Shown here piece by piece: positions 21,528-35,845 of a stretch of DNA of 35,845 nt. Each line of letters begins with the position of its first letter. Positions within the stretch are counted from its first letter, which is position 1. The stretch is from Candidatus Brocadiaceae bacterium (GTDB lineage: Bacteria > Planctomycetota > Brocadiia > Brocadiales > Brocadiaceae). The DNA lies in contig JANLHY010000767.1 of assembly GCA_024653795.1 (NCBI GenBank), positions 1 to 35,845 of the forward strand, in the 5' to 3' direction. The notes beneath the pieces were generated by a model. That model worked only from the letters and a program-made list of their open reading frames with translations. It had not been told where the DNA came from and did not search any database. A program made the translations under genes and the position numbers.

Positions 21528-21548
21528 ATAGTAAATAAATATGGAAGC

Positions 21549-21645: not shown

Positions 21646-21675
21646 CATATTAACAACTAAGGAGAATTATTTATT

Positions 21676-23175
21676 ATGAAACTAAACCAACATAGAATTT
21701 TGCTTATAGAGCCTCCTCATTATAGGTTATTTAAAGATACATATTCGCTTGACAGATATCCTCTTTCTTTAGGTTATCTGGCTGGAACAATAAGAAAAGA
21801 AACAAATTGGAGTGTAATGGCTTACAACACTGACTTTTGTCCTCAAAGTGAATCGATTAAACACAGTTATTTAGCAAGTACGGGCTTTGATAATTATCTA
21901 AATAATCTGAAAGACTTATCAGGACAGGTTTGGAGAGAGGTCAAATCAACTATATCAGAGTATAAACCCACTGTTGTTGGAATTTCTGCCAAATCTCAAA
22001 ATTTTACATCAGCATGTATAGTGGCTAAATTCGTTAAGGAAGTCAACGATCAAACCATTGTAATAGTAGGTGGTCCTCATCCTTCCATGGTAGAATCAGA
22101 TGTGCTGAATTGTCCAGATATTGATGTAGGTGTCAGAGGTGAAGGTGAAAATACTATTGTTGAACTACTTAATGCGATAGAGGCCCGAAAGAAATTCGAT
22201 GATATACGAGGCATTGTCTATAGAAAAGACACCCAGATTGTTAAAAACGCTCCCAGAGAATTTTTAGAAGATTTAGATTCTCTATGTTTCCCTCATGAAA
22301 GTGCTCCGGAAGTATTAAAAGACTACGACCAATATCCGCTAACGGCATTTAGAAATATATTTGCAACAAGAGGATGTCCCTATAATTGTTTCTTTTGCGG
22401 GTCCCGTAAGATATGGAATCGCAGTGTAAGATTTCGTTCCCCCGAGAATGTTGTGAGGGAAATAAAAGGTCTTCAAAAGATGGGATTAAGATCAGCCCAT
22501 TTTGACGACGACACTTTCGGTGTAAATAAGAAATATATAAACGATCTATGCAATGCACTTATCATACATTGTCCAGGCCTAAAATGGAGTTCTGAAATCC
22601 ATGTAAAATTGGTTGATGAACAAACCATATCTCTTATGAAAACAGCAGGTTGTTTTTCAATCCTAATTGGTATTGAATCGGGTAATAATGAAATATTGAA
22701 AGAAATGAGGAAAAACATCACTATTGAAGAAGCCCTTTCTGCGTGTGAAATTATTAAGAAACATGGTATATTGTTGCAAGCGTTCTTTATCGTTGGCTTT
22801 CCTCAAGAAACTGAAGATACTTTAAATGATACTGTCGCAGTTATGAAAAAATTAAATGCGGATGATTTAATCTACAGCATATTTACTCCTTATCCGGGTA
22901 CAGAGGCATTTGAATTTTGTAAAGAAAGGGGGTTGATTAGTGACGAGTATGATGTCTCTTTGTACAATCATCAGAGTCCAGCCAACTGCTTTTGCATTAA
23001 CATAAGGCCAGAGAGATTTAGGAGATTGGTTTCTAAAATAGAGAAAATGATAGACAGAAAAAACTCGCTAAATAAGATAAAACAAGTATTTTCCTTTGAC
23101 ACATTTAGAAAAATACAAGAGTTGGGAATAGGTAAAAGTTTTCAAAAAGGTATAAGAGTATTCATTGGCAAATAA
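21676..23175 (+). CDS. B12-binding-domain radical SAM protein (class B rSAM) no. 1
   Basis: N-terminal VVGISA...IVIVGGPHPS...VRGEGENTIVELL (cobalamin-binding-domain pattern), then RGCPYNCFFCGS (CxxxCxxC). Paralogue of the ORF at 28754. Confidence 0.9.
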   Translation: MKLNQHRILLIEPPHYRLFKDTYSLDRYPLSLGYLAGTIRKETNWSVMAYNTDFCPQSESIKHSYLASTGFDNYLNNLKDLSGQVWREVKSTISEYKPTVVGISAKSQNFTSACIVAKFVKEVNDQTIVIVGGPHPSMVESDVLNCPDIDVGVRGEGENTIVELLNAIEARKKFDDIRGIVYRKDTQIVKNAPREFLEDLDSLCFPHESAPEVLKDYDQYPLTAFRNIFATRGCPYNCFFCGSRKIWNRSVRFRSPENVVREIKGLQKMGLRSAHFDDDTFGVNKKYINDLCNALIIHCPGLKWSSEIHVKLVDEQTISLMKTAGCFSILIGIESGNNEILKEMRKNITIEEALSACEIIKKHGILLQAFFIVGFPQETEDTLNDTVAVMKKLNADDLIYSIFTPYPGTEAFEFCKERGLISDEYDVSLYNHQSPANCFCINIRPERFRRLVSKIEKMIDRKNSLNKIKQVFSFDTFRKIQELGIGKSFQKGIRVFIGK

Positions 23176-23200
23176 CGATTTGTAGGAAATGAAATGGGCT

Positions 23201-23272
23201 ATTGCAACCTCGCCTAACACAAAATAAAAGGTTCGTGCCTAATGGCACTCACTCAAATTTTTCTTCGCAAAA
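23201..23272 (+). repeat. Intergenic repeat family, copy C (left part only, truncated)
   Basis: ATTGCAACCTCGCCTAACA...AGGTTCGTGCC...CTCACTCAAATT aligns with copy B (ATCACAACTACGCCTAACA...CGGTTCGGCGC...CTCACCCAAATT). It lacks the GTTAGGCG end and abuts the FkbM fragment. Confidence 0.65.
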
Positions 23273-23552
23273 ACTATCCTAATGTTTCTGTAACTTTAGA
23301 CTATTTATGTGAGCAGTTAGGCATAATTCCAAATGCAATAAAAATTGATACGGATGGCAATGAAGATACGGTGCTTGAAGGTGCCGTTAAAAACTATCTA
23401 ATACTCGTTTGAGAAGTCTAGTGATTGAAATGCCACATGAGGATACGAGGAAAAGCAATTACTGCTATAAGCTGCTTGAGTCTGCAGGATTCTCTCTGGT
23501 GTGGTCAGATAAGAAAAAAACCAGAAACGAAATTTGGGCGCGTCGTAAATAA
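23273..23552 (+). pseudogene. 3' fragment of an FkbM methyltransferase gene, frameshifted (diverged duplicate of about 20110-20378)
   Basis: Translates to VSVTLDYLCEQLGIIPNAIKIDTDGNEDTVLEGAVK, then after a 1-nt deletion (GTTAAAAACTATCT versus GTTAAAACATTATCT) to LSNTRLRSLVIEMPHE...TRNEIWARRK*. This parallels the C-terminus of the 19530 gene. No N-terminal SAM-binding part is present. Confidence 0.85.
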
Positions 23553-23585
23553 AATATGACGTAGGTCCACTGAAAAGGAGGTAAA

Positions 23586-25058
23586 ATGGAAAACAATATT
23601 ATAGATAAGATGGTTAATCAGCTCAAAGTAATGCTAATTAACCCACCACAAAGATATTTTAACCAATCTCTGGGCTTTAATGTATACTTCCCATTAGGTT
23701 TATTAGGCATCGCTTCTATGATCAGAGATATATGTGTTGTGAAGATATTCGATTGCCTCATAACGGATTTTGAGGTTAAAAAAACAGGGGACTATACTTT
23801 ATACGGGACACCGCTTGAAAAAGTTAAGGAGGCCATTGAAAATTACAATCCTGATATTGTTGGAATTACTACACCATTTTCCTCTCAAGCAGAAAATGCC
23901 AAGGCAATAAGTCGTATCTGCAGAGACATCAATCCCAAAATAACAATAGTTTTTGGAGGGCCTCATGCTTCTGTCAGATATAAACAGTTGTTGGAAGAAG
24001 GCTTCTGTGATTATTGTGTTGTAGGAGAAGGTGAGGCGATTTTTAGGGAATTTATACAGAGAGTTATTTCTAAGTCAGATATTTTTGACATCGGAGGGTT
24101 GGCATATATAAAAGACAATGCTGTAAAATACATGTCACGAAAATTCATGGTCAACTTAGATGATCTACCCTTCCCTGCTTATGACTTAATAGATTTCAAT
24201 GCTTACCTTGATAGTCCATATTTATATAAAAGTAGAAGCGCAATACCCGAGAAATCAATTTCTATGATAACAAGTAGGGGATGTCCCTTCGATTGCACCT
24301 TTTGTTCTATTGAATTGCACATGGGTAAAAGATTCAGGTATCATTCTCCCGATTATGTTATACGCCATCTACGGTTTTGCATTGAGAAAATGGGCATTAG
24401 AAAATTTCATTTTGAAGATGACAACATGTCCCAAAATAAAAAAAGATTTGAAGCGATTCTGGATAAGATAATCGAGAATAATCTTGAGATAAACTGGGAT
24501 ACGCCGAATGGAATTCGTGCCGATACATTGGATTTTAATATTCTAAAAAAAATTAAGCAGTCGGGTTGCATAAGCCTGCAACTCGCAATAGAATCCGGGA
24601 ATCAGCGTATATTAAATGACGTTATTAAAAAGCAGTCTTCTTTAGATTACATTTTTAAGATAATAGAATATTGTTATGAATTAGAAATAAAATTAGCCGC
24701 TTTTTTCGTCATAGGATTTCCTGGAGAGACAATAAATGATATAAAAGAAACCATTGCTTTAGCTGTAAGATTATATAAATCCTACAATGTGCTTCCCATA
24801 CTATTATTTGCAACACCTTTATATGGAACAGAGTTATATAAAATTTGTATGGAGAAAGGGTTTGTAGATAAAAATTTTACAGACGATGACCTTGCTACCG
24901 CAACACAATTTTTTGGGAATCCTTTAATCTCGACAGAAGATTTTAACAAGGACGATCTAAAAAAAATTGCAACTGACTTTGAATTGGAAATGAATAAACT
25001 TGTAGGTAAAGGTTCGTTTCGCAAGATATTAACTGACAAAAAAGCTATTTTTGGTTGA
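23586..25058 (+). CDS. B12-binding-domain radical SAM protein (class B rSAM) no. 2
   Basis: IVGITT...TIVFGGPHAS...VVGEGEAIF, then RGCPFDCTFCS. AAGGAGG RBS. 490 aa. Confidence 0.9.
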   Translation: MENNIIDKMVNQLKVMLINPPQRYFNQSLGFNVYFPLGLLGIASMIRDICVVKIFDCLITDFEVKKTGDYTLYGTPLEKVKEAIENYNPDIVGITTPFSSQAENAKAISRICRDINPKITIVFGGPHASVRYKQLLEEGFCDYCVVGEGEAIFREFIQRVISKSDIFDIGGLAYIKDNAVKYMSRKFMVNLDDLPFPAYDLIDFNAYLDSPYLYKSRSAIPEKSISMITSRGCPFDCTFCSIELHMGKRFRYHSPDYVIRHLRFCIEKMGIRKFHFEDDNMSQNKKRFEAILDKIIENNLEINWDTPNGIRADTLDFNILKKIKQSGCISLQLAIESGNQRILNDVIKKQSSLDYIFKIIEYCYELEIKLAAFFVIGFPGETINDIKETIALAVRLYKSYNVLPILLFATPLYGTELYKICMEKGFVDKNFTDDDLATATQFFGNPLISTEDFNKDDLKKIATDFELEMNKLVGKGSFRKILTDKKAIFG

Positions 25059-25089
25059 AGGTAGAATCTATAAGATTAATAGAGATGAT

Positions 25090-25728
25090 ATGAACAACGT
25101 TGAGCAAATGTTTGATGAGAATAATGATATACAACAATTTTCTAAGAATTATTTTAGGTATCTATTTAAATTGTTAAATGATGTTGATGTAACTGCAATA
25201 GCAGCATTTGCTATGGAAATGGAAAAGGCTCGGAAAGGGCATAACACAGTATTTTTTATTGGAAATGGAGGATCAGCTGCCACTGCTTCGCACATGGCTA
25301 ATGATTTCGGCATGGACATTTTAAAGAAAACCGGCGGTGATCTCCCCTTCCGTGCTATGGCATTGACGGATAATGCCGCTGTTATGCTGGCTATTGCCAA
25401 TGATGAGGGTTATGACCGTTTGTTCGTTAACCAACTCCGTATTCATTACCGCCCGGGAGATAAACTCGTGGCCATTTCTGCAAGCGGCAACTCTCCCAAT
25501 GTGGTTGCAGCGGCGGAATGGGTAAAAGACCGGGGAGGCAAGGTAATCTCGCTTGTTGGGTTCGATGGGGGAAAATTAAAAGATATTTCAGATATAATAA
25601 TTCACGCAAAATCAGAAAAGGGTGAATACGGCCCTGTTGAGGATGTTCATATGATTATGGATCACTTGATTACCAATTGGTTACAATATAAGATGCTGTC
25701 GGAACAGGACGGAGTTAGGAAAATATGA
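25090..25728 (+). CDS. SIS-domain sugar-phosphate isomerase (GmhA/phosphoheptose-isomerase-like)
   Basis: VFFIGNGGSAATASHMANDF and AISASGNSPNV are the GmhA-type SIS signatures. The ATG at 25090 is preferred over the in-frame TTG at 25051 from the ORF track, but the start is uncertain. Confidence 0.75.
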   Translation: MNNVEQMFDENNDIQQFSKNYFRYLFKLLNDVDVTAIAAFAMEMEKARKGHNTVFFIGNGGSAATASHMANDFGMDILKKTGGDLPFRAMALTDNAAVMLAIANDEGYDRLFVNQLRIHYRPGDKLVAISASGNSPNVVAAAEWVKDRGGKVISLVGFDGGKLKDISDIIIHAKSEKGEYGPVEDVHMIMDHLITNWLQYKMLSEQDGVRKI

Positions 25729-26660
25729 ATGCGTTAACCGGGAGTAAAATCTTACTGGGGCCTTCTACTTTTGCTGCTCAGGACCCATCGCCTATCGAAA
25801 GGCTTGCAGCGGCAGGTTGTGAGATCATCAAAAATCCGTTTGGCAGAAAATTGACCAAGCAGGAGCTTATTGAACTGTTGCCTGGAGTAAAGGGACTAAT
25901 CGCCGGGCTTGAGACTTTAGACGAAGATGTGATGCGCAAGTCGGAACTCAAAGTTATTTCAAGGTGCGGTTCAGGAATATCAAATATTGATATGGAAGCA
26001 GCAAAAAAAAAAGGTATTAAAGTTTTTTTTACTCCATATGGTCCGACTACTGCAGTGGCCGAGCTTACACTGGGGGCTATGTTAAATCTGCTCAGGATGG
26101 TCTCCCTTATGGACAGGGATATGCATGAAGGTAAATGGACTAAAAAAGTCGGCGCTCAACTCGAGGGCAAAACAGTAGTAGTTATTGGCCTTGGCAGAAT
26201 TGGCAGAAAAGTTGTTTCACTGCTAAAACCATTCAATGTGAGGCTGCTTGCTGTAGATCCTAATGTTAGAGAAAAAATAGACAGGGTAGAAATCCTTCCA
26301 CTTGGTAAAGCGCTTACAGAAGCGGATATAATCACCATTCACTCAAGTGGCGAACAGCAGATTATAGGCGACGATGAATTTAGACTTATTAAGAGAGGGA
26401 CATTTTTACTGAATGCTGCCAGGGGCGGCTTGATTAATGAAATCGCACTGATTAATGCAATTGAGAGCGGTAAGATAGCAGGTGCATGGCTTGACACATT
26501 CAGTGTTGAACCATATGCAGGTCCCTTAAGTAAATATCCTCAAGTCTTATTGACCCCTCATGTGGGTTCGTATACCCAGGAATGTCGGATATCTATGGAG
26601 ACGGAAGCTGTTGAAAATTTAATAACAGCTTTTGAAAAGATAAAGCAAGATGAAGGATAA
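25725..26660 (+). CDS. D-isomer-specific 2-hydroxyacid dehydrogenase (SerA/phosphoglycerate dehydrogenase-like)
   Basis: VVVIGLGRIGRKV (GxGxxG), NAARGGLI and LLTPHVGS (catalytic His context). ATGA overlap with the upstream gene. Confidence 0.85.
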   Translation: MNALTGSKILLGPSTFAAQDPSPIERLAAAGCEIIKNPFGRKLTKQELIELLPGVKGLIAGLETLDEDVMRKSELKVISRCGSGISNIDMEAAKKKGIKVFFTPYGPTTAVAELTLGAMLNLLRMVSLMDRDMHEGKWTKKVGAQLEGKTVVVIGLGRIGRKVVSLLKPFNVRLLAVDPNVREKIDRVEILPLGKALTEADIITIHSSGEQQIIGDDEFRLIKRGTFLLNAARGGLINEIALINAIESGKIAGAWLDTFSVEPYAGPLSKYPQVLLTPHVGSYTQECRISMETEAVENLITAFEKIKQDEG

Positions 26661-27405
26661 TGATGCATCTCAGTGGTTATCAGTGGCTGGCGAGGCTGCG
26701 CGGAGAGCCGGTGCATCTCTATTGCATTCCACACAAAATGGCCGAAATATTATCACTGATAAAGAAAGAGATGTAAAAATAGCTGCTGATGGGAATTCTG
26801 AAAGCATTATCTTGAATTATCTCCAGGAGCACTCTGCTTTTTCTATTCTTTCCGAAGAGAGGGGATTAGTCGAGCGGAATTACCGTAGCATGGTGTGGAT
26901 CGTCGATCCTTTGGATGGTAGCTTGAACTATTCCCGCGGTATCCCGTTTTGTTGTGTATCTATCGGACTTTGGGAAGAGAATCGACCGGTACTGGGTGTT
27001 ATATATGATTTTCACCGCGCTGAATTTTATTCCGGAATTGCCGGGGAAGGAGCGTGGTGCAATGAGCGTGAAATTAAGGCAAGCGATGTGAACAGAAAGG
27101 AGAATGCGGTACTCTGTACCGGGTTTCCTGTTAATACAGATTTTTCAGCCGAAAGTTTGATGACCTTTATTCAAAAAATCCAACAATATAAAAAAATACG
27201 ACTTCTTGGCTCAGCAGCCCTCTCTCTTGCGTACGTCGCCTCTGGAAGAGCAGACGCATACATGGAAGACGATATTATGATCTGGGATGTCGCGGCAGGT
27301 CTGGCAATTGCGAGTGGTTCTGGGTGTTTATTGAATATAAATAACGGAACCAAATCAAATTCACTTCACGTCGCCGCTTCCAATGGAAATCTTCAATTAA
27401 CATAA
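26650..27405 (+). CDS. Inositol monophosphatase family phosphatase
   Basis: WIVDPLDGSLNY and WDVAAG are the two IMPase-family signatures. 251 aa. Confidence 0.85.
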   Translation: MKDNDASQWLSVAGEAARRAGASLLHSTQNGRNIITDKERDVKIAADGNSESIILNYLQEHSAFSILSEERGLVERNYRSMVWIVDPLDGSLNYSRGIPFCCVSIGLWEENRPVLGVIYDFHRAEFYSGIAGEGAWCNEREIKASDVNRKENAVLCTGFPVNTDFSAESLMTFIQKIQQYKKIRLLGSAALSLAYVASGRADAYMEDDIMIWDVAAGLAIASGSGCLLNINNGTKSNSLHVAASNGNLQLT

Positions 27406-27406
27406 A

Positions 27407-27594: not shown

Positions 27595-27629
27595 AAAAGT
27601 TTATATATGGATACAAGGAGTTAGTTTAG

Positions 27630-28790
27630 ATGGCGGATCCCTTAGTAACTGTCTTAATGACCGTGCACAACGGTGGGGAATACCTCAAGGAATCGGTCCG
27701 GAGCGTTCTCAGTCAAATATTCGAGGATTTTGAATTCCTGATCATCAATGATTGCAGTACAGATGATTCGGTAAAGATTATTGAGTCTTTTAATGATGAA
27801 CGTATTGTTATTCATCATAATGAAAAGAATTTAGGGCAAACGAAATCTTTGAATATAGGTTTAAGGCTCGCAAGAGGTAAATATGTCGCGAGAATGGATG
27901 CAGATGATATGGCTTTCCCAATGTGGCTGGAGAAACTTGTAAGTTTTGCTGAATCTCATCGGGAATATGTGGTGGTCAGCGCTGCTGCCGCAGTTATGAA
28001 TGCATCGGGAAAATTTAAAAAAATCCAGCGGACTCCGACAACATTTGAAGGGGCAATCTTCCATATCTTTATCGGAAATGCTATAAATCATGTTGGCTCA
28101 CTTTTCAATAAAGAGATTATTTTAAAAAATGGAGGATATAATGAAGAATTCAAGATATCGCAGGACTATGAACTGTGGTCATTTCTGATAAGAAATAATT
28201 ATCGTTTGGTTAATATAGACGATATGCTGGTTGCAGTCAGGGTACACGAAAGTTCCCGCAGCTATGTTGCTGAAAAAGACAGAGGACTTCAGGAGGTTGC
28301 AGAGACAATTTATCGGAATGTGAGTTCTTTAACGAAGCTAAAAATATCTTATGATGATGCTATTAAACTAAGATTATTTTATCGTTTTCCTCATCAATTA
28401 ACAAACGAAGAATTTAGGGACACACAGGATTTGTATTCTAAAATATTCCATAGTTTAAAAGAGGAATTCAAATTAGAGCCAAGTATTCTTAAACAAAAAT
28501 TAAAAAAACAAATGGTAATTCCTTACTATAAACGAGCTATGTTTGAAATTGAAAATAGCAGATCTAAATCTGCGCGTAAAATATTATTAAATTACCATAC
28601 TCTATATGGGTTTCATATTATACTATTTTTGATATTCTTAGTGACATTTTTAGATAATGCCAAAGTGAAAAGGTTACTAAATATTTATGAGAGCCTGATG
28701 GAAAGGATTATTACACGTTTCATCTTATCTCCGAGAGAAAGCAGGGAGGAAACATGGATCCAAAAGCTAAGAATAAAATTCTACTTATAG
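27630..28790 (+). CDS. Family 2 glycosyltransferase (GT2) with a C-terminal membrane segment
   Basis: VTVLMTVHNGGEYLKESVRSVLSQ..FEFLIINDCSTDDS and ARMDADD (DxD). AAGGAG RBS. 386 aa. Confidence 0.85.
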   Translation: MADPLVTVLMTVHNGGEYLKESVRSVLSQIFEDFEFLIINDCSTDDSVKIIESFNDERIVIHHNEKNLGQTKSLNIGLRLARGKYVARMDADDMAFPMWLEKLVSFAESHREYVVVSAAAAVMNASGKFKKIQRTPTTFEGAIFHIFIGNAINHVGSLFNKEIILKNGGYNEEFKISQDYELWSFLIRNNYRLVNIDDMLVAVRVHESSRSYVAEKDRGLQEVAETIYRNVSSLTKLKISYDDAIKLRLFYRFPHQLTNEEFRDTQDLYSKIFHSLKEEFKLEPSILKQKLKKQMVIPYYKRAMFEIENSRSKSARKILLNYHTLYGFHIILFLIFLVTFLDNAKVKRLLNIYESLMERIITRFILSPRESREETWIQKLRIKFYL

Positions 28791-30271: not shown

Positions 30272-30281
30272 ATAAGTAAAT

Positions 30282-31805
30282 ATGGTGATAAAAGGGAAAA
30301 AAGTCTTATTAGTATTTCCAGATATTTCTGAAAGGTCATGGCATAAGGGTTATTTCCATTATGGTTTAGCTCATATTTCATCATATCTTAAAGAAAAAAT
30401 TAAGAATATTGAAATATCGTTGTTATCTGTTCGTGATAAGAATTATAATCAGACTGATTTTGTTAATGAGATAAAGAAATTTCAACCGGATATAATTGGT
30501 TTTACTTCTACAACGCACAGTTTTCCTATAGTTCAGAAAATCTCAAAATGGGTGAAAAATTTAAGCAATGATATTTTAACAGTTTGTGGAGGTATTCATG
30601 TAACTATAAATCCACAAGAAGCATTATTGTCCTCAGAGCTTGATGTTGTTATTTGTGGAGATGGGGAATATCCTATGGAAGCAATAGTAAATGAATGGGT
30701 CGATTATGGCACAATACCGGATAAAAATGGTATATGGTATCGGAAAGAAAATTGTATAGTTAATAATAGTCTTGCTAAAGTGGATAATTTGGATTTGCTA
30801 CCCGATCCTGATTGGGAGCTTTTTGACTATATGAACCTAGATGATGGCTCTCAAGGTATTGGCGGATTGATGCTTTCAAGGGGATGTCCATACCAATGTA
30901 CTTATTGTTGTAATCATAAAATTGCGAATATTTATAGAGAAAATAATACAAGTTATGTTCGTTTTAAGAGCGTTGGAAAATCAATATCGGAGATTAAAAA
31001 CTTTATCAAAAAGTTTCCAAAGATACATACTTTGTATTTTGATGATGATATTTTACCATTAAACAAATCTTGGTTTTTTGATTTTGCTGCGAGATATAAA
31101 AAAGAGATAAATATGCCTTACTGGTGTAATGTCAGGCCTAATTTAGTTAATGAGGAAATAGTAGAGGCATTTGTTGATTCTGGGTGTGTTCGCGCAGGCA
31201 TTGGAATAGAGAGCGGTAACGAAAATATAAGAAATAAAGTCTTAAAAAGAAATATTTCAGAGCAGTCCCTTATCAATGCGGTATCACTATTGAAAAAGAA
31301 AAATATTTATGTATACACTTATAACATGGTTGGAATACCCACAGAAACGAGAGAAGAATTATTAGATACGATACGTTTAAATAGCAGGTTAAATGTTGAT
31401 AAAATGCAATGTTCGATCTTTTATCCATACAAGCATACAGCCTTGCATGATTTTGTTCTTAAAGAAGGGCTGTCTATAAGTGAAGGATCATTGATTGAAT
31501 ATACACAGAAAAGTATTTTAAAGTTTAGTTTTGCTCAAATTAACCGAATATACTTTACAGTACTAACAATAGAACTAGTTTCAAAAATTTATAAAGCTCT
31601 TCCTAGATTTGCATCCGAAGTATTTTTAAGAATACTTTATTCCGCTCCATCATCAGTTTTCTTTCTTCCAATTGCCAATATTCTAATGAGAAAAATATTA
31701 GCCTCGAAAAAACTCGCTAGTAAGATTAGAAAGATGTTGAGATTAATTATTCCTCCACCTCCTACGGTAATAGCTAAACACATTGGTAGGATTAAGGAAA
31801 CGTAA
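30282..31805 (+). CDS. B12-binding-domain radical SAM protein (class B rSAM) no. 4
   Basis: IIGFTS...TVCGGIHVT...ICGDGE, then RGCPYQCTYCCNHK. Hydrophobic C-terminal tail. 507 aa. Confidence 0.9.
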   Translation: MVIKGKKVLLVFPDISERSWHKGYFHYGLAHISSYLKEKIKNIEISLLSVRDKNYNQTDFVNEIKKFQPDIIGFTSTTHSFPIVQKISKWVKNLSNDILTVCGGIHVTINPQEALLSSELDVVICGDGEYPMEAIVNEWVDYGTIPDKNGIWYRKENCIVNNSLAKVDNLDLLPDPDWELFDYMNLDDGSQGIGGLMLSRGCPYQCTYCCNHKIANIYRENNTSYVRFKSVGKSISEIKNFIKKFPKIHTLYFDDDILPLNKSWFFDFAARYKKEINMPYWCNVRPNLVNEEIVEAFVDSGCVRAGIGIESGNENIRNKVLKRNISEQSLINAVSLLKKKNIYVYTYNMVGIPTETREELLDTIRLNSRLNVDKMQCSIFYPYKHTALHDFVLKEGLSISEGSLIEYTQKSILKFSFAQINRIYFTVLTIELVSKIYKALPRFASEVFLRILYSAPSSVFFLPIANILMRKILASKKLASKIRKMLRLIIPPPPTVIAKHIGRIKET

Positions 31806-31806
31806 A

Positions 31807-33255
31807 ATGAAAAAAATAACCTTTGTTATTTCTGAAGTAAAGTTGCACGAACATCTTTCTGTTATGGCTCTAAGCGCTTCTTTAAAGAATTCAGGACATG
31901 AAACCTCTCTGGTATTCATTCAAAATGACCCTTTAAATAAAAATAAAATTCTAAAGGCGCTTAAGAATGAAAACCCAGATTTTATAGCATTTAGTTTTAT
32001 GTCTGGGGTAAAGAATCAGTATTTCGATCTAGGGACTTACATTAAGCGGCATATGGATATTCCCATCATTATTGGTGGTCCTGCTGCAACATTTGATCAA
32101 AGTTTAAGTAATATTAAAGATAACCCATTTGATGCGGTTTGTATCGGCGAGGGTGATTTGTCTATTATTGAATTTGTGAATAAATATAATCAAGGGAAGA
32201 ATCTAACAGCAATAAACAATTTTATTATAGAATCTGGGAATGGCAATCAATTAAAAGGTGATTTACTAAATCTTGTTGAGCCTTTGAATCAACTCCCATT
32301 TCCCGATAGGAAAATTTTGTACGATAAAGATGATTTTCTCAGAAATTCTAAAATTAAAATGTTTATTTCTGGTAGAGGTTGCCCATATCAATGTACTTAC
32401 TGCTTCAATCATAAATATAATAGTATGTATAAAGGGAAAGGGAAGATTATCCGGCATAAATCAGTAGACTATTTTTTGGAAGAAATATGCAAGACAAAAA
32501 AGGAATATCCTTTGGAAGGTATCATTTTTGAAGATGATATTTTTATTATTGATAAGGAATGGTTATCAGAGTTTGCCGAAAAATATCCAAAACGAATCGG
32601 GCTTCCTTACATGTGTTATGTTCGTCCAAATCTCGTTACTAAAGAACTTGCTAGATTACTGAAAGTATCTGGATGTTATTCTGTCCGGGTTGCTATAGAA
32701 TGCGGTAATGAAGTTCTTCGGAATAAAATTCTTAAAAGGAATCTCAGTAATGAGCAAATCCTGAAAAGTTGCCAAATTCTTCAAGATGAAAACATTAAAA
32801 TTGGAACAATTAACATTCTGGGATTACCCACAGAGACGATTACCAATATGAGAGAAACCCTCGAATTGAATAGAGCTTGTAAGCCTGATCATGTTTCTGC
32901 AAATATGTTTATACCACTTCCGGGGGTAGATTTGACTTTATTTGCTGTTCAAAAAGGTTTGCTGGACGAAGAATTTAACTCACCTAAATCAACACATCAT
33001 ATCAGTGATATGAAATATCCGGATGACGTAAAAAGATTCCTGTATCCATTTAAGGCGCTTTTTCCACTTATGGTGCTAAAAAAAAACATTGAAACAATTA
33101 CCCCTCTGTTAATGAAATTACCAGGGCCGCTCCTGAAAATGATCGATAGCGGTTATAGACTATATCGTAATGCCAAATTCTATCCACCGGTTCGATTTAG
33201 TATTCGTGAAAAATGGGAAGCCTTACGTCGCTTTCTTACTATAGTATCACGATGA
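31807..33255 (+). CDS. B12-binding-domain radical SAM protein (class B rSAM) no. 5
   Basis: FIAFSF...IIIGGPAAT...CIGEGD, then RGCPYQCTYCFNHK. Paralogue of the ORF at 30282. The ATG at 31807 (after AAGGAA) is preferred over the in-frame TTG at 31783. Confidence 0.9.
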   Translation: MKKITFVISEVKLHEHLSVMALSASLKNSGHETSLVFIQNDPLNKNKILKALKNENPDFIAFSFMSGVKNQYFDLGTYIKRHMDIPIIIGGPAATFDQSLSNIKDNPFDAVCIGEGDLSIIEFVNKYNQGKNLTAINNFIIESGNGNQLKGDLLNLVEPLNQLPFPDRKILYDKDDFLRNSKIKMFISGRGCPYQCTYCFNHKYNSMYKGKGKIIRHKSVDYFLEEICKTKKEYPLEGIIFEDDIFIIDKEWLSEFAEKYPKRIGLPYMCYVRPNLVTKELARLLKVSGCYSVRVAIECGNEVLRNKILKRNLSNEQILKSCQILQDENIKIGTINILGLPTETITNMRETLELNRACKPDHVSANMFIPLPGVDLTLFAVQKGLLDEEFNSPKSTHHISDMKYPDDVKRFLYPFKALFPLMVLKKNIETITPLLMKLPGPLLKMIDSGYRLYRNAKFYPPVRFSIREKWEALRRFLTIVSR

Positions 33256-33291
33256 AGCTTGAGAAAATGCACACTCTGTAGAATTCACGCC

Positions 33292-34635
33292 ATGAAAAAA
33301 ATAGCACATATAAAATCAACCGACATATTGATTGGTATTACATTTGTATTAATTTATTTCCAGGTATACTGGCATTACTGGCTTGTAAAATTATTGAATG
33401 GTTATGTTATAAACACTCTCTTGCCTATAATCTTTCTGTTCTGTCTTTTTTTATTCAGAGAATTAGTATCCCATAAAACCAGCTTTACGAAAAGAAGGGC
33501 ATATAGTGTAATTCTTCCGTTAATTTTTTATGCCTTTTTTGCCACAATTTCGATAGTACTCAATGCAGAGGGGTTCGGGGAAATTAAAAGCTTTCTTATT
33601 TATATCTATTCTCCTTTATTAATATTTATCAGTATCGTACGGCTTCATAAATTCAGACAGAATGATAGCGTGAAATCCATTCTTTTGCTTCTTTTTATTG
33701 CTGGTATTATTTTTTCAATTTATGTAGCGATTATATTCTCAGTAGACCCACAGGGTTTGCTTGCAATGCCAGATATAGAAACTAATCGAGGAGTGATTAG
33801 TACGACATACGGAGGGGCCTATGGAGTGGGGGACCTGGAAGCTGTCAGATATAGTATTCCAGGAATAAGTTCAACGACATACGGACCTATATTGGTTCCA
33901 CTAATGTTTGTAGGGTTTTACTTCAAAAAGTATACAAAGGGTAAACTTATGCATTTCATTTATACAGTACTCATTCTATTTTTAATATTCTGTGTTTTAA
34001 AGACCGTGTCGCGTGGGCCGTTAATTGCGATGTTTGCTGGCATAACATATCTTGGTTGGAGAAACTTGCTGAAAACAAAAGAAATAGTCTTTATCGCTTC
34101 TGTGCTTGTAATTTCGTTTCTCACTTTTGCAAAGCTTGCATTGTTAAGGTTGATCATAACACTAGCCATATTTATACCTTTTGATATTCCGTTCCTGGAT
34201 GCAGCTATAGATATAACAGATCTTCTCAAAGATCCGAGGGTAGAAGTGGCGCCCGAGACCTTCTCTCAGATATTGGCGCATCCTTTTATGGGAATGGGCA
34301 TGACAAATCTGATCAATCTTCAGGAGCTGTCATATGGAAAAGATCACAACAACTACTTAAGTATTGCCGCATCGTTCGGAAGTCTGACCCTCGTTTTTTA
34401 CCTGTTGTTTTTATTTCTGCTTTTTATTATGACTCAGAAAGCAATTAAGAGACTTTCATGGAATCCGACAAGCAAAGACCTGGGTATTGTCTTGAGTGCT
34501 GGATTATTGGCTTTAATAGTTTATCTGAATTTTGCCCCTGCTGAATTACATTTTATTTGGATCTGGTTTGGCCTTACCGCGGCGTGGTTACGGAATGCCG
34601 AAAAAGAAATTTATTTAAAAGAAGGTTTCAATTAA
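33292..34635 (+). CDS. O-antigen ligase/polymerase family (Wzy-like) integral membrane protein
   Basis: About 447 aa and highly hydrophobic with many TM segments. VSRGPLIAMFAG resembles the Wzy_C/O-antigen-ligase loop motif. The ATG at 33292 is preferred over the TTG at 33259. Confidence 0.7.
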   Translation: MKKIAHIKSTDILIGITFVLIYFQVYWHYWLVKLLNGYVINTLLPIIFLFCLFLFRELVSHKTSFTKRRAYSVILPLIFYAFFATISIVLNAEGFGEIKSFLIYIYSPLLIFISIVRLHKFRQNDSVKSILLLLFIAGIIFSIYVAIIFSVDPQGLLAMPDIETNRGVISTTYGGAYGVGDLEAVRYSIPGISSTTYGPILVPLMFVGFYFKKYTKGKLMHFIYTVLILFLIFCVLKTVSRGPLIAMFAGITYLGWRNLLKTKEIVFIASVLVISFLTFAKLALLRLIITLAIFIPFDIPFLDAAIDITDLLKDPRVEVAPETFSQILAHPFMGMGMTNLINLQELSYGKDHNNYLSIAASFGSLTLVFYLLFLFLLFIMTQKAIKRLSWNPTSKDLGIVLSAGLLALIVYLNFAPAELHFIWIWFGLTAAWLRNAEKEIYLKEGFN

Positions 34636-34658
34636 TTGAAAGGAAGATATAAAAGGGT

Positions 34659-35845
34659 ATGAATATCCTGATAATCGAGCCGCCTGCTGTTTCTAAGTTT
34701 GGTAATCAGAGAATATTTGGCGGAAATGGAAGCAATAAAAGCGACTTCAGAAAGCCTCCGCTTGATTTAATGATGATTTCCGGTTATTTGAGAAAAGAGG
34801 GATACGATAATAATCTCATTGATGCAAATTCTTCACGAAGAACAATAGATGACGTAGAGGGGATCATTAAAAAAAACTTTCCTGATGTCCTTTTCTTTTC
34901 TACTTCCACGTGCACCATTTATAAGGATCTGCTTGTTGCAAAGGTCGCTAAAAAAATAAACCCTTCGATTATTACTGCTGCTATCGGGACTCATGTAATG
35001 GCATTACCTCTTGAAACATTTCAGGAATCGCAATATCTTGACATTATTGTATATTCGAGTGAATGGGAGCAGGCATCATTAAATATAGTGAGAAATTTAT
35101 CAAATTTAGAAAATGCAAAAGGAATATTTTTCAAGAAACCTGATGGAACAATTGTAAAGACAGATTTGCAGCCGCCTTTGCAAAATCTTGATGACTTGGG
35201 GTTCCCATCCCATGATAAGCTTGAAAAAGAACTTTACGGAGATCCTACCTCTAAAGGATCTCCAAAAACAATGGTTATGGGACAGAAGGCATGTATTAAC
35301 AACTGCAGCTTTTGCTGCCAGCCGGCTTTCTTTGGCGCCCCTGTAATCAGAAAGCGTTCTGTTGAGCATTTCATTTCTGAATTGAAGTGGGTTCAGCATC
35401 TCGGTTTTAAAGAGGTTATGTTCAATGATGCTACATTGACTGCAGATACGGAGTGGGCAACTGCATTATTTGAGGGTGTGATAGAGAACAATATCGATAT
35501 TACTTGGAACTGCTCTACAAGAGCTGAACGGGTTAATGATTCGATATTAAAGTTAATGAAGAAGGCAGGATGCCATACTATTGCACTTGGAATGGAAAGT
35601 ACTGATCCCGTAGTGCTGAAGAATATTAGAAAAAATGTTGCCCCAGAACAGTTAAGAGAGTCGGTATCACTAATAAGAAAAAATGGAATGAATACGGTAG
35701 TATTCTGTGTGGTAGGTTTCCCGGGAGAGACCAGGGGAAGCATAGAAAAAACTATATCTTTCCTGAAGACTCTTGATACAACCTATATTACTCTTGGAAT
35801 AGCAGTCCCGGCGCCAGGCACGGATTTCTATAAGTATGTTGAAGA
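34659..35845 (+). CDS. B12-binding-domain radical SAM protein (class B rSAM) no. 6, 3'-truncated by the window end
   Basis: Not in the ORF track because it has no stop. I translated it by hand from the ATG at 34659 and found no stop through 35845: MNILIIEPPAV...VLFFSTST...AAIGTHVM...GQKACINNCSFCCQP (CxxxCxxC)...GMESTDPVVLKNIRK...VVGFPGET. Confidence 0.85.
   Translation, partial: MNILIIEPPAVSKFGNQRIFGGNGSNKSDFRKPPLDLMMISGYLRKEGYDNNLIDANSSRRTIDDVEGIIKKNFPDVLFFSTSTCTIYKDLLVAKVAKKINPSIITAAIGTHVMALPLETFQESQYLDIIVYSSEWEQASLNIVRNLSNLENAKGIFFKKPDGTIVKTDLQPPLQNLDDLGFPSHDKLEKELYGDPTSKGSPKTMVMGQKACINNCSFCCQPAFFGAPVIRKRSVEHFISELKWVQHLGFKEVMFNDATLTADTEWATALFEGVIENNIDITWNCSTRAERVNDSILKLMKKAGCHTIALGMESTDPVVLKNIRKNVAPEQLRESVSLIRKNGMNTVVFCVVGFPGETRGSIEKTISFLKTLDTTYITLGIAVPAPGTDFYKYVE

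What the first reader, a model, noticed from the sequence alone, without database searches (positions are those of the whole stretch)
21676..35845. Six class-B (cobalamin-domain) radical SAM genes embedded in a Wzx/Wzy polysaccharide locus
Six ORFs combine an N-terminal B12-binding-type Rossmann region (GGPHxS-like and GEGE/GDGE motifs) with a CxxxCxxC radical SAM core. They lie at 21676-23175, 23586-25058, 28754-30271, 30282-31805, 31807-33255 and 34659 to the window end. The cores read CPYNCFFC, CPFDCTFC, CPYNCWFC, CPYQCTYC twice, and CINNCSFC. The genes are interleaved with a GT2, a Wzy/O-antigen-ligase-family protein, methyltransferases and sugar-modifying enzymes, all co-directional and tightly packed. 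Characterised class B rSAMs methylate or otherwise functionalise unactivated carbon or phosphorus centres, for example on aminoglycoside sugars, hopanoids and phosphonates. Six of them, in at least two paralogue pairs plus two singletons, is far beyond what ordinary O-antigen or capsule loci carry. This suggests a glycan, or a lipid-linked intermediate, that receives multiple radical C-methylations or C-C bond-forming modifications. I regard this as the best candidate for an undescribed system in the window. An alternative worth testing is that the ACP/KASIII/SDR cassette upstream supplies an acyl chain that is the actual rSAM substrate.
Basis: partly seen in the sequence, partly recalled or inferred. 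Interest (0 to 1): 0.8.

Follow-up and report, generated by a model that had tools for sequence, protein, structure and literature searches.

The report
Six B12-type radical SAM glycan-tailoring genes
A surface-polysaccharide gene cluster from an uncultured, probably anaerobic microbe carries six genuine cobalamin-domain radical SAM enzymes of uncharacterised subfamilies that recur, and move between genomes, inside sugar-polymer loci across bacteria and archaea, which points to an unstudied kind of radical chemistry on cell-surface glycans.

Summary
All six ORFs pass Pfam's curated cut-offs for both the B12-binding domain and the radical SAM core. Each has one CxxxCxxC motif, and none reaches the cut-off of any curated NCBIfam family (BchE, HpnJ, PhpK, AprD4, lipid enzymes). 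They sit in a co-directional Wzx/Wzy polysaccharide locus.

What the comparisons add:
- The six fall into five subfamilies. R1 and R3 are 59% identical; R4 and R5 are a distant pair at 32%.
- Each subfamily recurs in glycan loci (GT2/GT4, Wzy, Wzx, NDP-sugar enzymes) of many phyla, including archaea.
- The array is modular. Related metagenomic loci share a core of SIS-2HADH-IMPase-GT2-R4-R5-Wzy-R6.
- R1 (with a methyltransferase) and R3 are insertions. The R1 insertion is flanked by a 256-bp duplication of the FkbM gene's 3' end.
- R1 alone is 95% nucleotide-identical to a gene in an unrelated context, so it behaves as a single-gene cassette.
- Among 121 loci fetched by similarity to R1/R3, R2, R4 or R6, nearly all of which hold a class B gene, the maximum elsewhere is five; the window has six. 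Synteny predicts a seventh beyond its end.

The best reading is accessory cytoplasmic glycan-tailoring enzymes. C-methylation is plausible but unproven. The closest solved structure is AprD4, a sugar dehydratase. The ACP/KASIII alternative is not supported. I found no literature on such systems.

The parts
21676..23175 (+). R1, class B radical SAM (499 aa, CPYNCFFC). Behaves as a single-gene mobile cassette.
   Evidence: PF02310 scores 50.8 bits and PF04055 89 bits. The best NCBIfam hit is BchE at 215 bits against a cut-off of 481. Homologues are 65-92% identical across Nitrospirota, Peptococcaceae, Chloroflexota, Omnitrophota, Woesearchaeota and others. The AF2 model has pLDDT 83, and Foldseek places it with AprD4, MgmA, TsrM, OxsB, CysS and TokK. 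Locus L122 is 95% nucleotide-identical to window 21628-23259 only, with unrelated flanks.
23586..25058 (+). R2, class B radical SAM (490 aa, CPFDCTFC). An accessory gene, present in L084 but without an orthologue in L096.
   Evidence: PF02310 scores 68.3 bits and PF04055 77.6 bits. The best NCBIfam hit is the Sden_1168 P-methyltransferase family at 196 bits against a cut-off of 575. It belongs to a large family (4396 hits at E<=1e-30 among the 8000 candidates scored), with relatives 50-90% identical in DPANN archaea, Omnitrophota, Firmicutes, Acidobacteriota and marine Rhodospirillaceae. Contexts are given.
28754..30271 (+). R3, class B radical SAM (505 aa, CPYNCWFC). Paralogue of R1 at 59% identity.
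   Evidence: Domain scores and identity are. It lies inside window 28556-30287, which has no counterpart in L084 or L096.
30282..31805 (+). R4, class B radical SAM (507 aa, CPYQCTYC). First gene of a conserved R4-R5 dyad.
   Evidence: Domain scores are. The family is smaller, with 121 hits at E<=1e-30. The R4-R5 adjacency is seen in L084, L085 and L096. The C-terminal 90 aa are strongly basic, with 16 K/R against 3 D/E.
31807..33255 (+). R5, class B radical SAM (482 aa from the ATG at 31807; an upstream TTG at 31783 is also possible; CPYQCTYC).
   Evidence: Domain scores and ORF coordinates are. It is 32% identical to R4. Orthologues of 74-91% identity are in L084, L085, L096 and L109.
34659..35845 (+). 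R6, class B radical SAM, truncated by the window end (395 aa of about 484; CINNCSFC). Part of the conserved Wzy-R6 pair.
   Evidence: PF02310 scores 42.8 bits and PF04055 81.3 bits. The best hits are HpnJ at 187 bits against a cut-off of 578, and the AprD4 structure 6fd2. Orthologues of 73-82% identity occur in 17 metagenomic loci, and three more are 55% identical. Where flanks are available, most lie directly after a Wzy-like gene that is itself only 25-60% identical.
20367..23282 (+). Insertion 1 relative to L084 and L096. It carries the class I methyltransferase g21 (20646-21527) plus R1.
   Evidence: DNA collinearity: L084 1-4990 matches window 15376-20366, and L084 4735-8860 matches window 23283-27407.
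20111..20366 (+). Left copy of the roughly 256-bp direct repeat. This is the 3' end of the intact FkbM methyltransferase gene (19530-20378).
   Evidence: The repeat is reported (89% identity over 110 nt). Both copies match L084 4735-4990.
23283..23537 (+). Right copy of the repeat. It is a frame-broken remnant of an FkbM 3' end (small ORFs at 23242-23412 and 23409-23552) lying in the 410-nt gap before R2.
   Evidence: The small ORFs are listed. The remnant is 72% aa-identical to FkbM residues 195-282.
28556..30287 (+). Insertion or replacement 2 relative to L084 and L096. It covers the 3' end of the GT2 gene plus R3.
   Evidence: L084 8856-9817 matches window 27594-28555, and L084 10001-12244 matches window 30288-32531. 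The same break points are seen in L096.
25051..27405 (+). Trio of a GmhA-like SIS isomerase, a PGDH-like 2-hydroxyacid dehydrogenase and an IMPase-family phosphatase. It is a conserved companion of the GT2-Wzy-R6 core.
   Evidence: Pfam and NCBIfam assignments are. The trio co-occurs with R6 orthologues in L096, L098, L102, L104 and L105, and is also present in L084.
27630..28790 (+). GT2 glycosyltransferase.
   Evidence: PF00535 scores 113 bits. Homologues sit upstream of Wzy/R6 in related loci.
33259..34635 (+). Wzy / O-antigen-polymerase-family membrane protein.
   Evidence: PF04932 scores 44.7 bits against a cut-off of 31.7. A crude hydropathy scan finds 9 hydrophobic segments.
19530..20378 (+). 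FkbM-type SAM-dependent methyltransferase.
   Evidence: PF05050 scores 36.2 bits against a cut-off of 22.7. It is 89% identical to the L096 homologue.
16999..19536 (+). KdsB-type CMP-ulosonic acid synthetase (16999-17763) followed by g19 (17767-19536), an unassigned family with a GT-B fold.
   Evidence: For the synthetase, NF009905 scores 287 bits (cut-off 255) and TIGR00466 scores 162 bits (cut-off 155). g19 has no Pfam, NCBIfam or PDB sequence hit. Its AF2 model has pLDDT 92.7 and matches GT-B glycosyltransferases. A g19 homologue lies next to an R2 homologue in L089/L090.
2508..5875 (+). PFTS-motif polysaccharide biosynthesis protein (2508-4403) and Wzx-type flippase (4400-5875).
   Evidence: TIGR04417 scores 125 bits against a cut-off of 100. 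PF13440 and PF01943 match the flippase. L001 shows a similar arrangement, a large unannotated protein followed by Polysacc_synt, near an R1 orthologue.
5888..7931 (+). ACP - KASIII - SDR cassette. It probably supplies a short hydroxyacyl group for N-acylation of an amino sugar (inference). It is not linked to the rSAM genes.
   Evidence: Pfam assignments are. No co-occurrence with the rSAM families was found.
13099..14100 (+). Seventh radical SAM gene of the locus. It is SPASM/twitch-type, not class B.
   Evidence: PF04055 scores 80.6 bits and PF13186 47.2 bits. No NCBIfam cut-off is reached.

Best explanation
The six genes encode real class B (cobalamin-domain) radical SAM enzymes of five uncharacterised subfamilies. 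They act as cytoplasmic tailoring enzymes for a Wzx/Wzy-assembled surface heteropolysaccharide.

The locus also makes a CMP-activated Kdo-like ulosonic acid and N-acylated, O-methylated sugars.

Proposed mechanism (inferred, not shown):
1. Each enzyme reductively cleaves SAM at its [4Fe-4S] cluster. The resulting 5'-deoxyadenosyl radical abstracts a hydrogen from an unactivated sugar carbon.
2. The substrate is a nucleotide-activated sugar or the undecaprenyl-diphosphate-linked repeat unit, before Wzx flips it.
3. The substrate radical is then most often quenched by methyl transfer from methylcobalamin, giving a C-methyl sugar. For some of the six the outcome could instead be dehydration, deoxygenation or rearrangement.

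The set is combinatorial:
- The core is GT2-R4-R5-Wzy-R6 with the SIS/2HADH/IMPase trio.
- R2 travels with a GT-B transferase (g19), next to a nucleotidyltransferase in both contexts seen.
- R1 and R3 are recently acquired single-gene decorators, analogous to serotype-converting O-acetyl- or methyltransferases.
- The locus probably continues past the window with GT4 - DUF218 - a seventh class B enzyme and a GDP-heptose-type pathway.
For: Shown by tool results:
- Both domains are above curated cut-offs in all six, each with one CxxxCxxC.
- The R1 model folds like solved class B enzymes and AprD4.
- None of the six has a predicted transmembrane segment of note.
- R1 orthologues (46-78% identical) in about 37 genomes have GT4/GT1 within four genes in 19 loci, GT2 in 8, NDP-sugar epimerase/dehydratase in 6 and class I methyltransferases in at least 8.
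- Individual contexts show Wzx, Wzy, Bac_transf, WecG, Wzz and ArnT-like genes.
- R6 orthologues (73-82% identical) mostly follow a Wzy-like gene that is only 25-60% identical.
- Modularity: L084 (backbone 86-94% nucleotide-identical) lacks g21+R1 and R3. L096 also lacks an R2 orthologue.
- The R1 insertion is flanked by a duplicated FkbM 3' end.
- R1 alone is 95% nucleotide-identical to a gene in unrelated flanks.
- Arrays of 2-5 class B genes recur in glycoconjugate contexts in Nitrospirota (lipid A acyltransferases, GT9), Pacearchaeota and Patescibacteria.

From established knowledge (my own, not tested here):
- Class B enzymes already act on sugars or cytidylylated substrates: GenK, GenD1, Fom3 on CMP-HEP, HpnJ and OxsB.
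- SAM, the reductant and cobalamin are cytoplasmic, so tailoring must precede flipping.
Against: - No substrate or product is known for any member of the five subfamilies.
- No score reaches any curated family cut-off.
- Cobalamin binding cannot be tested here, and no cobalamin or SAM riboswitch is present.
- The closest solved structure to R1 and R6 is AprD4. It has this architecture but is a 1,2-diol dehydratase, and to my knowledge it does not use cobalamin.
- R6 lacks both N-terminal motifs.
- An R2 relative in marine Rhodospirillaceae sits beside phosphonate-binding transporter genes rather than a classical glycan locus.
- No initiating phosphoglycosyltransferase is present in the window.
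- Gene neighbourhood is circumstantial evidence.
Confidence: 0.6

Rival explanations
1. The enzymes tailor the glycan but are mostly not methyltransferases. Under this reading they carry out cobalamin-independent or non-methylating radical reactions on sugars. Examples are 1,2-diol dehydration leading to deoxygenation (AprD4-like), ring contraction to a carbocycle or oxetane (HpnJ- or OxsB-like), epimerisation and oxidation.
For: - AprD4 (6fd2) is the top sequence and structure match in the PDB for R1 and R6.
- HpnJ is the best or second-best NCBIfam hit for all six.
- R6 lacks the GGxH and GEGE motifs and has the weakest B12-domain score.
- The locus already has three ordinary SAM methyltransferases.
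Against: - The AprD4 sequence matches cover mainly the radical SAM core (R1 223-433, R6 161-392). The matches to the cobalamin-binding enzymes TokK and OxsB extend into the N-terminal domain (R1 97-398 and 89-400).
- All scores to the AprD4 and HpnJ models are far below their cut-offs.
Confidence: 0.25
2. The true substrates are lipids or acyl chains rather than sugars. Candidates are the product of the ACP/KASIII/SDR cassette, lipid A acyl chains or the polyprenyl carrier.
For: - An ACP-KASIII-SDR cassette is present upstream.
- Lipid-modifying class B models (TIGR04072, and HpnR, which acts on a hopanoid lipid) give weak hits.
- In Nitrospirota locus L044, a four-gene class B array is flanked by two lipid A acyltransferase-family genes.
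- R4 and R5 have basic C-terminal tails that could bind a membrane.
Against: - A KASIII homologue was found in only 1 of about 125 fetched loci, on the opposite strand.
- L085, L096 and the other R4/R5/R6 loci lack the cassette within the stretch fetched, yet keep the rSAM genes next to GT2 and Wzy.
- TIGR04072 scores at most 135 bits against a cut-off of 360.
- KASIII+ACP+SDR cassettes in glycan loci are, to my knowledge, usually suppliers of 3-hydroxybutyryl N-acyl groups.
Confidence: 0.08
3. R2, and possibly others, is a P- or C-methyltransferase for a phosphonate or phosphinate substituent that is attached to the glycan through a cytidylylated intermediate.
For: - R2's best curated match is the Sden_1168 family of B12 radical SAM P-methyltransferases, over nearly its full length (196 bits).
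- A 54%-identical homologue in marine Rhodospirillaceae lies next to a nucleotidyltransferase, a g19-like GT-B protein and phosphonate-binding ABC transporter genes.
- To my knowledge, Fom3 methylates a CMP-activated phosphonate.
Against: - The score is one third of the family cut-off of 575.
- No PEP mutase, phosphonopyruvate decarboxylase or other phosphonate-forming gene is in the window.
- Another R2 homologue, in L091, is in an ordinary GT2/GT4 locus.
Confidence: 0.05
4. The genes have nothing to do with the glycan. They would be peptide or protein (RiPP-type, S-layer) or cofactor-modifying enzymes that merely lie in a variable genomic island.
For: RiPP-type class B models (ApyD, rSAM_ocin_1) give moderate hits. 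The locus is clearly a recombination hot spot.
Against: - No precursor-peptide-like ORF, protease or exporter of RiPP type was noticed.
- The genes are translationally packed between GT2 and Wzy (junctions -37 to +23 nt).
- The same subfamilies lie in glycan loci in dozens of unrelated genomes.
Confidence: 0.03

Closest known systems
GenK / GenD1 (gentamicin) and related class B radical SAM C-methyltransferases of aminoglycoside pathways
   Same: They have the same two-domain architecture (B12-binding domain plus radical SAM core). They act on unactivated sugar carbons as accessory tailoring steps. This rests on my own knowledge, and the 2026 review cites gentamicin and carbohydrates as substrates.
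   Different: Those enzymes work on small secreted antibiotics in actinomycete secondary-metabolite clusters. The genes here lie in Wzx/Wzy surface-polysaccharide loci of uncultured bacteria and archaea. Sequence relatedness was not tested directly because no GenK or GenD1 model was on hand. Related curated methylase models score far below their cut-offs.
AprD4 (apramycin), radical SAM 1,2-diol dehydratase, PDB 6fd2
   Same: It is the closest solved structure to R1 and R6 by sequence (95 bits) and by fold (TM 0.72 normalised to AprD4). Its substrate is a sugar, paromamine.
   Different: Identity is only about 18%. The NF033070 model scores 95-114 bits against a cut-off of 500. The sequence matches cover mainly the radical SAM core. 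To my knowledge AprD4 does not bind cobalamin.
HpnJ (hopanoid cyclitol ether formation) and BchE (anaerobic Mg-protoporphyrin cyclase)
   Same: These are the highest-scoring curated families for most of the six (103-215 bits). To my knowledge HpnJ acts on a glucosamine moiety installed by a GT2 enzyme and freed by a deacetylase. That gene trio is echoed by the deacetylase-GT2-Wzy-R6 arrangement in L098, L104 and L105.
   Different: Scores are 20-45% of the equivalog cut-offs of 481 and 578. No hopanoid or bacteriochlorophyll genes are present.
Fom3 (fosfomycin) acting on cytidylylated 2-hydroxyethylphosphonate
   Same: It is a precedent for a class B enzyme whose substrate is CMP-activated (my own knowledge). 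R2 sits three genes from a KdsB-type cytidylyltransferase. Its homologue in L089 sits two genes from a nucleotidyltransferase, the g19-like gene lying between them.
   Different: No phosphonate genes are present here. Relatedness to Fom3 was not tested.
Serotype-converting glycan decorators (O-acetyltransferases, glucosyltransferases, O-methyltransferases) in O-antigen and capsule loci
   Same: They show the same genetic behaviour: single genes gained or lost between otherwise near-identical loci, with recombination scars.
   Different: Those enzymes use polar chemistry at hydroxyl groups. Radical SAM chemistry at carbon has not, to my knowledge or in the searchable literature, been described for surface polysaccharides.

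Membership tests
Class B (cobalamin-binding-domain) radical SAM enzymes | An N-terminal Rossmann-type B12-binding domain (PF02310) scoring above the curated cut-off. | tested here: met
   All six score 42.8-68.3 bits against a cut-off of 32.1.
Class B (cobalamin-binding-domain) radical SAM enzymes | A radical SAM core (PF04055) with a CxxxCxxC cluster motif. | tested here: met
   All six score 63.7-89 bits against a cut-off of 29.5. Each has one CxxxCxxC.
Class B (cobalamin-binding-domain) radical SAM enzymes | An overall fold like that of solved members (TokK, TsrM, OxsB, MgmA, CysS). | tested here: met
   Tested for R1 only. The AF2 model has pLDDT 83.4. Foldseek gives E-values of 1e-16 to 1e-21 against these structures.
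Class B (cobalamin-binding-domain) radical SAM enzymes | Actual binding and catalytic use of cobalamin. | not testable with these tools
   This needs reconstituted protein. AprD4 shows that the architecture alone does not prove cobalamin use. No cobalamin riboswitch is present, and the host genome is not available.
BchE (TIGR02026) | The equivalog score cut-off of 481 bits. | tested here: not met
   The best score is 215 bits, for R1.
HpnJ (TIGR03471) | The equivalog score cut-off of 578 bits. | tested here: not met
   The best scores are 188 bits (R1) and 187 bits (R6).
PhpK / Sden_1168 P-methyltransferases (TIGR04479, NF038361) | Score cut-offs of 600 and 575 bits. | tested here: not met
   The best scores are 172 bits (R1) and 196 bits (R2).
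AprD4 diol dehydratase (NF033070) | The equivalog score cut-off of 500 bits. | tested here: not met
   The best score is 114 bits, for R6.
Lipid-modifying class B enzymes (TIGR04072 lipid biosynthesis protein, HpnR) | Score cut-offs of 360 and 650 bits. | tested here: not met
   The best scores are 135 and 110 bits. The Tes model (NF045702) did not appear among the listed matches of the six. It gave only a 28-bit hit, to the SPASM-type enzyme g14.
GenK / GenD1 / Fom3 sugar or phosphonate C-methyltransferases | Sequence membership in those clades. | not tested
The related KedN5 family model scores at most 91 bits against a cut-off of 700.
Wzx/Wzy-dependent polysaccharide locus | A Wzx-type flippase and a Wzy-type polymerase. 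| tested here: met
   PF13440 and PF01943 match the ORF at 4400-5875. PF04932 matches the ORF at 33259-34635.
Wzx/Wzy-dependent polysaccharide locus | An initiating phosphoglycosyltransferase and a chain-length regulator. | tested here: not met
   Neither was found among the window's ORFs. They may lie outside the window. Related loci L001 and L088 carry Bac_transf, and L088 also carries Wzz.

The most novel reading that the evidence does not exclude
Bacteria and archaea of anoxic habitats share a horizontally mobile toolkit of dozens of class B radical SAM 'glycan editors'. In my sample of fetched loci, the class B genes fall into 76 clusters at 45% identity or more. These enzymes would install carbon-centred modifications (C-methyl or longer alkyl branches, deoxygenations, ring rearrangements) on surface polysaccharide repeat units. 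This locus would stack six or seven such edits on one glycan. Under this reading, radical chemistry is a major, so far unseen source of cell-surface glycan diversity and a large hidden sink for corrinoids.
Probability: 0.4. Interest if true: 0.8.

Novelty: new variant of a known kind. Interest (0 to 1): 0.62.

Why it matters
Class B radical SAM enzymes are one of the largest blocks of enzymes with unknown function. Nearly all characterised members come from antibiotic, cofactor or lipid pathways.

If these subfamilies do edit surface polysaccharides, three things follow:
- They would define a new substrate class for radical SAM chemistry.
- They would predict sugar structures (C-branched, deoxygenated or rearranged residues) that standard glycan analysis of cultured aerobes has not revealed.
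- They would tie cell-envelope diversity in uncultured anaerobes, CPR bacteria and DPANN archaea to corrinoid availability.

The natural variants found here differ only by R1+g21 and R3 (window versus L084), and additionally by R2 (versus L096). They offer ready-made comparisons for assigning each enzyme's product.

Tried and rejected
- **Source contig.** An exact-match look-up of R1 to find the source contig found nothing on record. The organism stays unknown, and the best cultured relative of R1 is Pelotomaculum propionicicum at 78%.
- **RNA elements.** An Rfam scan for cobalamin or SAM riboswitches gave no hits.
- **Promoters and terminators.** The scan gave numbers equal to the shuffled expectation, so no operon boundaries can be claimed.
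- **Viral contigs.** Only 24-31% identical relatives turned up, so there is no sign that these are phage genes.
- **Literature.** Ten full-text searches were run. Seven combined B12/radical SAM terms with polysaccharide, O-antigen, flippase, nucleotide sugar or cell surface terms. They gave 0-3 irrelevant papers. One search was too broad to be useful. The 2026 review of B12 radical SAM enzymes does not mention polysaccharide, glycan or capsule.
- **MT25-R1 as a fixed pair.** Rejected. The nearest R1 relative (L122) shares only the R1 gene, and no g21 homologue is adjacent to R1 orthologues.
- **g05 and g19 as paralogues.** Rejected, because BLASTP finds no similarity.
- **Profile search of the PDB with the g19 family.** No sequence hit. 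Only the fold comparison identified it as GT-B.
- **Separating methylases from dehydratases by fold.** The Foldseek ranking does not discriminate between them.

Full report
**1. The observation**

The window is about 36% G+C and carries some 32 co-directional genes on the + strand. I call them R1 to R6.

| Name | Coordinates | CxxxCxxC motif |
|---|---|---|
| R1 | 21676-23175 | CPYNCFFC |
| R2 | 23586-25058 | CPFDCTFC |
| R3 | 28754-30271 | CPYNCWFC |
| R4 | 30282-31805 | CPYQCTYC |
| R5 | 31807-33255 | CPYQCTYC |
| R6 | 34659 to window end | CINNCSFC |

- Each passes Pfam's gathering scores for both the B12-binding domain (PF02310, 42.8-68.3 bits) and the radical SAM core (PF04055, 63.7-89 bits).
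- The GGPHxS and GEGE motifs are intact in R1-R3, altered in R4 and R5, and absent in R6.
- R1 and R3 are 59% identical. R4 and R5 are 32% identical. All other pairs are 22-29%.
- An AlphaFold model of R1 (pLDDT 83) superposes on AprD4, MgmA, TsrM, OxsB, CysS and TokK.

So the six are class B radical SAM proteins by architecture and, for R1, by predicted fold. Whether they bind cobalamin cannot be decided in silico.

**2. The surroundings**

The locus is a Wzx/Wzy-type polysaccharide cluster. In gene order it contains:
- An MNT/HEPN toxin-antitoxin pair and a GNAT acetyltransferase.
- A PFTS-motif polysaccharide protein (TIGR04417) and a Wzx flippase.
- ACP-KASIII-SDR.
- An unassigned 380-aa protein with no family match (7952-9094).
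- A polysaccharide deacetylase, an HpcH/HpaI-type aldolase, a GFO oxidoreductase and a methyltransferase.
- A SPASM-type radical SAM enzyme.
- A HisC-like aminotransferase, a GNAT and a DUF386 protein.
- A KdsB-type cytidylyltransferase that passes NCBIfam cut-offs.
- A 589-aa protein, g19.
- An FkbM methyltransferase and a second class I methyltransferase.
- R1 and R2.
- A trio of a GmhA-like SIS isomerase, a PGDH-like dehydrogenase and an IMPase-type phosphatase.
- GT2, R3, R4, R5, Wzy, R6.

g19 has no Pfam, NCBIfam or PDB sequence match. A confident model (pLDDT 92.7) has a GT-B glycosyltransferase fold. No riboswitch or other Rfam element is present.

**3. Relatives elsewhere**

*R1.* R1 belongs to a very large family whose members are 65-92% identical across Nitrospirota, Peptococcaceae, Chloroflexota, Omnitrophota, Latescibacterota, Woesearchaeota and Methanobacterium.
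- In about 37 genome loci with an R1 orthologue, the recurrent neighbours within four genes are GT4/GT1 (19 loci), GT2 (8), NDP-sugar epimerase/dehydratase (6) and class I methyltransferases.
- Individual contexts show Wzx, Wzy, Bac_transf and ArnT-like genes.
- R1 orthologues are usually the only class B gene in their locus.

*R4.* R4 belongs to a smaller family that again lies in glycan loci (GT2, Wzy, WecG, Wzz, dTDP-sugar genes). An R5-type gene follows it in the three closest relatives (L084, L085, L096), but not in L086-L088.

*R2.* R2's family is large.
- It occurs in a GT2/GT4 locus (L091).
- In marine Rhodospirillaceae it occurs next to a g19-like protein, a nucleotidyltransferase and phosphonate-binding transporter genes.

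*R6.* R6 orthologues (73-82% identical) were found in 17 metagenomic loci, and three more loci hold 55% relatives.
- Where flanks are available, most lie directly after a Wzy-like gene that is only 25-60% identical.
- Several also carry the SIS/2HADH/IMPase trio.
- Downstream of R6, related loci carry a GT, a DUF218 protein and a further class B enzyme of its own subfamily. In L096 GT2 and a GDP-heptose-type pathway then follow.
- The window therefore probably stops one class B gene short.

*How unusual six is.* Among the 121 loci fetched by that point, the number of class B ORFs per locus is 0 (4 loci), 1 (78), 2 (25), 3 (8), 4 (5) and 5 (1, the syntenic L096). The window has 6. The 183 class B ORFs in all the sequence scanned, the window's own six included, form 76 clusters at 45% identity or more. 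The window's six occupy five of them.

**4. Modularity and recent exchange**

- L084 is a Logan contig whose backbone is 86-94% nucleotide-identical to the window. It has the order GNAT-DUF386-KdsB-g19-FkbM-R2-SIS-2HADH-IMPase-GT2-R4-R5, without g21+R1 and without R3.
- L096, from Hainich groundwater, has FkbM-SIS-2HADH-IMPase-GT2-R4-R5-Wzy-R6 and lacks orthologues of R1, R2 and R3.
- Window 20367-23282 (g21+R1) is an insertion bounded by two copies of the last roughly 256 bp of the FkbM gene. The right-hand copy (23283-23537) is a frame-broken remnant lying in the otherwise unexplained 410-nt gap before R2.
- Window 28556-30287 (the GT2 3' end plus R3) is a second replacement.
- A contig from another sample (L122) is 95% nucleotide-identical to window 21628-23259, which is just R1 with 48 nt upstream and 84 nt downstream. 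It is unrelated on both sides.

R1 thus behaves as a single-gene cassette. A single-gene cassette fits an enzyme that decorates an existing structure better than one that makes a new precursor needing its own transferase. That last step is my inference.

**5. What it most likely does**

The best-supported reading is that the six are accessory, cytoplasmic glycan-tailoring enzymes.
- The array consists of a conserved core (R4-R5, Wzy-R6) plus add-ons (R2, R1, R3).
- The mechanism proposed is hydrogen abstraction from a sugar carbon of a nucleotide-activated or undecaprenyl-linked intermediate, followed by methyl transfer from methylcobalamin. This follows from what class B enzymes are known to do, not from any test here.
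- The main rival is non-methylating chemistry. AprD4, a sugar 1,2-diol dehydratase, is the closest solved relative of R1 and R6. HpnJ is a top curated hit for all six. R6 lacks the N-terminal motifs.
- On the other side, the sequence matches to AprD4 cover mainly the radical SAM core. The matches to the cobalamin-binding enzymes TokK and OxsB extend into the N-terminal domain.

- KASIII homologues are absent from 124 of about 125 fetched loci that hold class B genes.
- The rSAM genes keep their GT2/Wzy neighbours in loci that lack the cassette.

A phosphonate-related role for R2 is possible but weak, because the window has no phosphonate-forming genes.

**6. Comparison with what is known**

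None of the six reaches the curated cut-off of BchE, HpnJ, PhpK, Sden_1168, ApyD, MgmA, BzaD, HpnR, AprD4, KedN5, TsrM-type or the lipid enzymes. The closest functional analogues are the class B sugar tailoring enzymes of aminoglycoside pathways and AprD4. The closest genetic analogues are serotype-converting decorators of O-antigen loci.

I found no paper that links B12-type radical SAM enzymes to surface polysaccharide loci.
- Seven targeted full-text searches returned nothing relevant.
- A 2026 review of the enzyme class does not use the words polysaccharide, glycan or capsule.
- One metagenomic paper notes in passing a huge virus with 15 radical SAM genes alongside viral O-antigen genes, without connecting the two.

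This is absence of evidence within an open-access library, not proof of novelty.

**7. Verdict**

The feature is real, and the family assignment is correct at the superfamily level. The glycan context is robust and recurrent. The density is the highest I sampled. The evidence of module gain and loss is direct. The specific chemistry, the substrates and cobalamin dependence remain inferred.

I rate it a new variant of a known kind: class B radical SAM tailoring applied to Wzx/Wzy surface polysaccharides, by uncharacterised subfamilies. The interest score is about 0.6.

Noticed in passing
window 23242-23552: The 410-nt 'intergenic' gap between R1 and R2 holds a frame-broken remnant of the 3' end of an FkbM methyltransferase gene. 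It is 72% aa-identical to residues 195-282 of the intact copy at 19530-20378. It marks the right border of the g21+R1 insertion.
   Followed up: yes
window 17767-19536: g19 is a 589-aa protein with no Pfam, NCBIfam or PDB sequence match. It belongs to a family of about 234 representative clusters. It is confidently predicted (pLDDT 92.7) to have a GT-B glycosyltransferase fold. It follows the KdsB-type cytidylyltransferase, so it is a candidate transferase for the CMP-activated ulosonic acid. A homologue lies next to an R2 homologue in a marine Rhodospirillaceae genome.
   Followed up: partly
window 10106-10870, 16999-17763, 25051-27405: The locus has a KdsB-type CMP-Kdo synthetase but no KdsA-type synthase. 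It carries instead an HpcH/HpaI-type pyruvate aldolase, a GmhA-like SIS isomerase, a PGDH-like dehydrogenase and an IMPase-type phosphatase. Together these could form an unconventional route to a 3-deoxy-2-ulosonic acid.
   Followed up: no
window 13099-14100: The locus holds a seventh radical SAM gene of the SPASM/twitch type. It lies between a methyltransferase and a HisC-like aminotransferase and reaches no curated family cut-off. Similar SPASM genes sit beside class B genes in L054, L076 and L086.
   Followed up: no
L096 11397-19772; L104 11443-16029; L105 10541-17994: Downstream of R6 orthologues there is a recurrent block: a GT (GT4 or GT2), a DUF218 protein and a further class B radical SAM gene of its own subfamily. 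In L096 a GT2 and a GDP-heptose-type pathway follow (an NTP-transferase/HAD fusion, a GHMP kinase, GmhA and an epimerase). The window probably continues in the same way.
   Followed up: partly
L044 9031-18071 (Nitrospirota MAG): Four consecutive class B radical SAM genes are flanked on both sides by lipid A acyltransferase-family genes, with a GT9 heptosyltransferase downstream and a methyltransferase and a phosphodiesterase upstream. This is an LPS core or lipid A context rather than an O-antigen one.
   Followed up: no
L089/L090 8001-16252 (marine Rhodospirillaceae): An R2 homologue (54% identical) is followed by a g19-like protein and then an HTH-nucleotidyltransferase fusion. Phosphonate-binding ABC transporter genes follow, and sulfatase-family genes lie upstream. 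This hints at a link to phosphonate or sulfated compounds.
   Followed up: no
window 31535-31805 and 32985-33255: The C-terminal ~90 residues of R4 and R5 are strongly basic and partly hydrophobic (16 K/R against 3 D/E, and 18 against 7). They could be membrane-association tails, which would fit action on lipid-linked intermediates.
   Followed up: no
window 21607-21677: A terminator-like hairpin (21607-21619) and a promoter-like site (21650-21677) lie just before R1. The promoter-like site is inside the 48 nt that travel with the R1 cassette. Counts of such sites in the region are no higher than in shuffled sequence.
   Followed up: no
window 696-1578: An MNT-type nucleotidyltransferase and a HEPN/HepT-like RNase form a toxin-antitoxin pair at the upstream edge of the polysaccharide locus. 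A similar pair lies near the R1 orthologue in L012.
   Followed up: no
window 2508-4403: A 631-aa 'PFTS motif' polysaccharide biosynthesis protein (TIGR04417) lies directly upstream of Wzx. Large unannotated proteins also occur near R1 orthologues: 698 aa directly before Polysacc_synt in L001, and 717 aa directly before the R1 orthologue in L002.
   Followed up: no
paper PMC9723712: A metagenomic study of viruses of methanogens and methanotrophic archaea mentions a huge virus that encodes 15 radical SAM enzymes, as well as viral O-antigen genes. My scan of viral contigs found only distant (24-31% identical) relatives of R1.
   Followed up: partly
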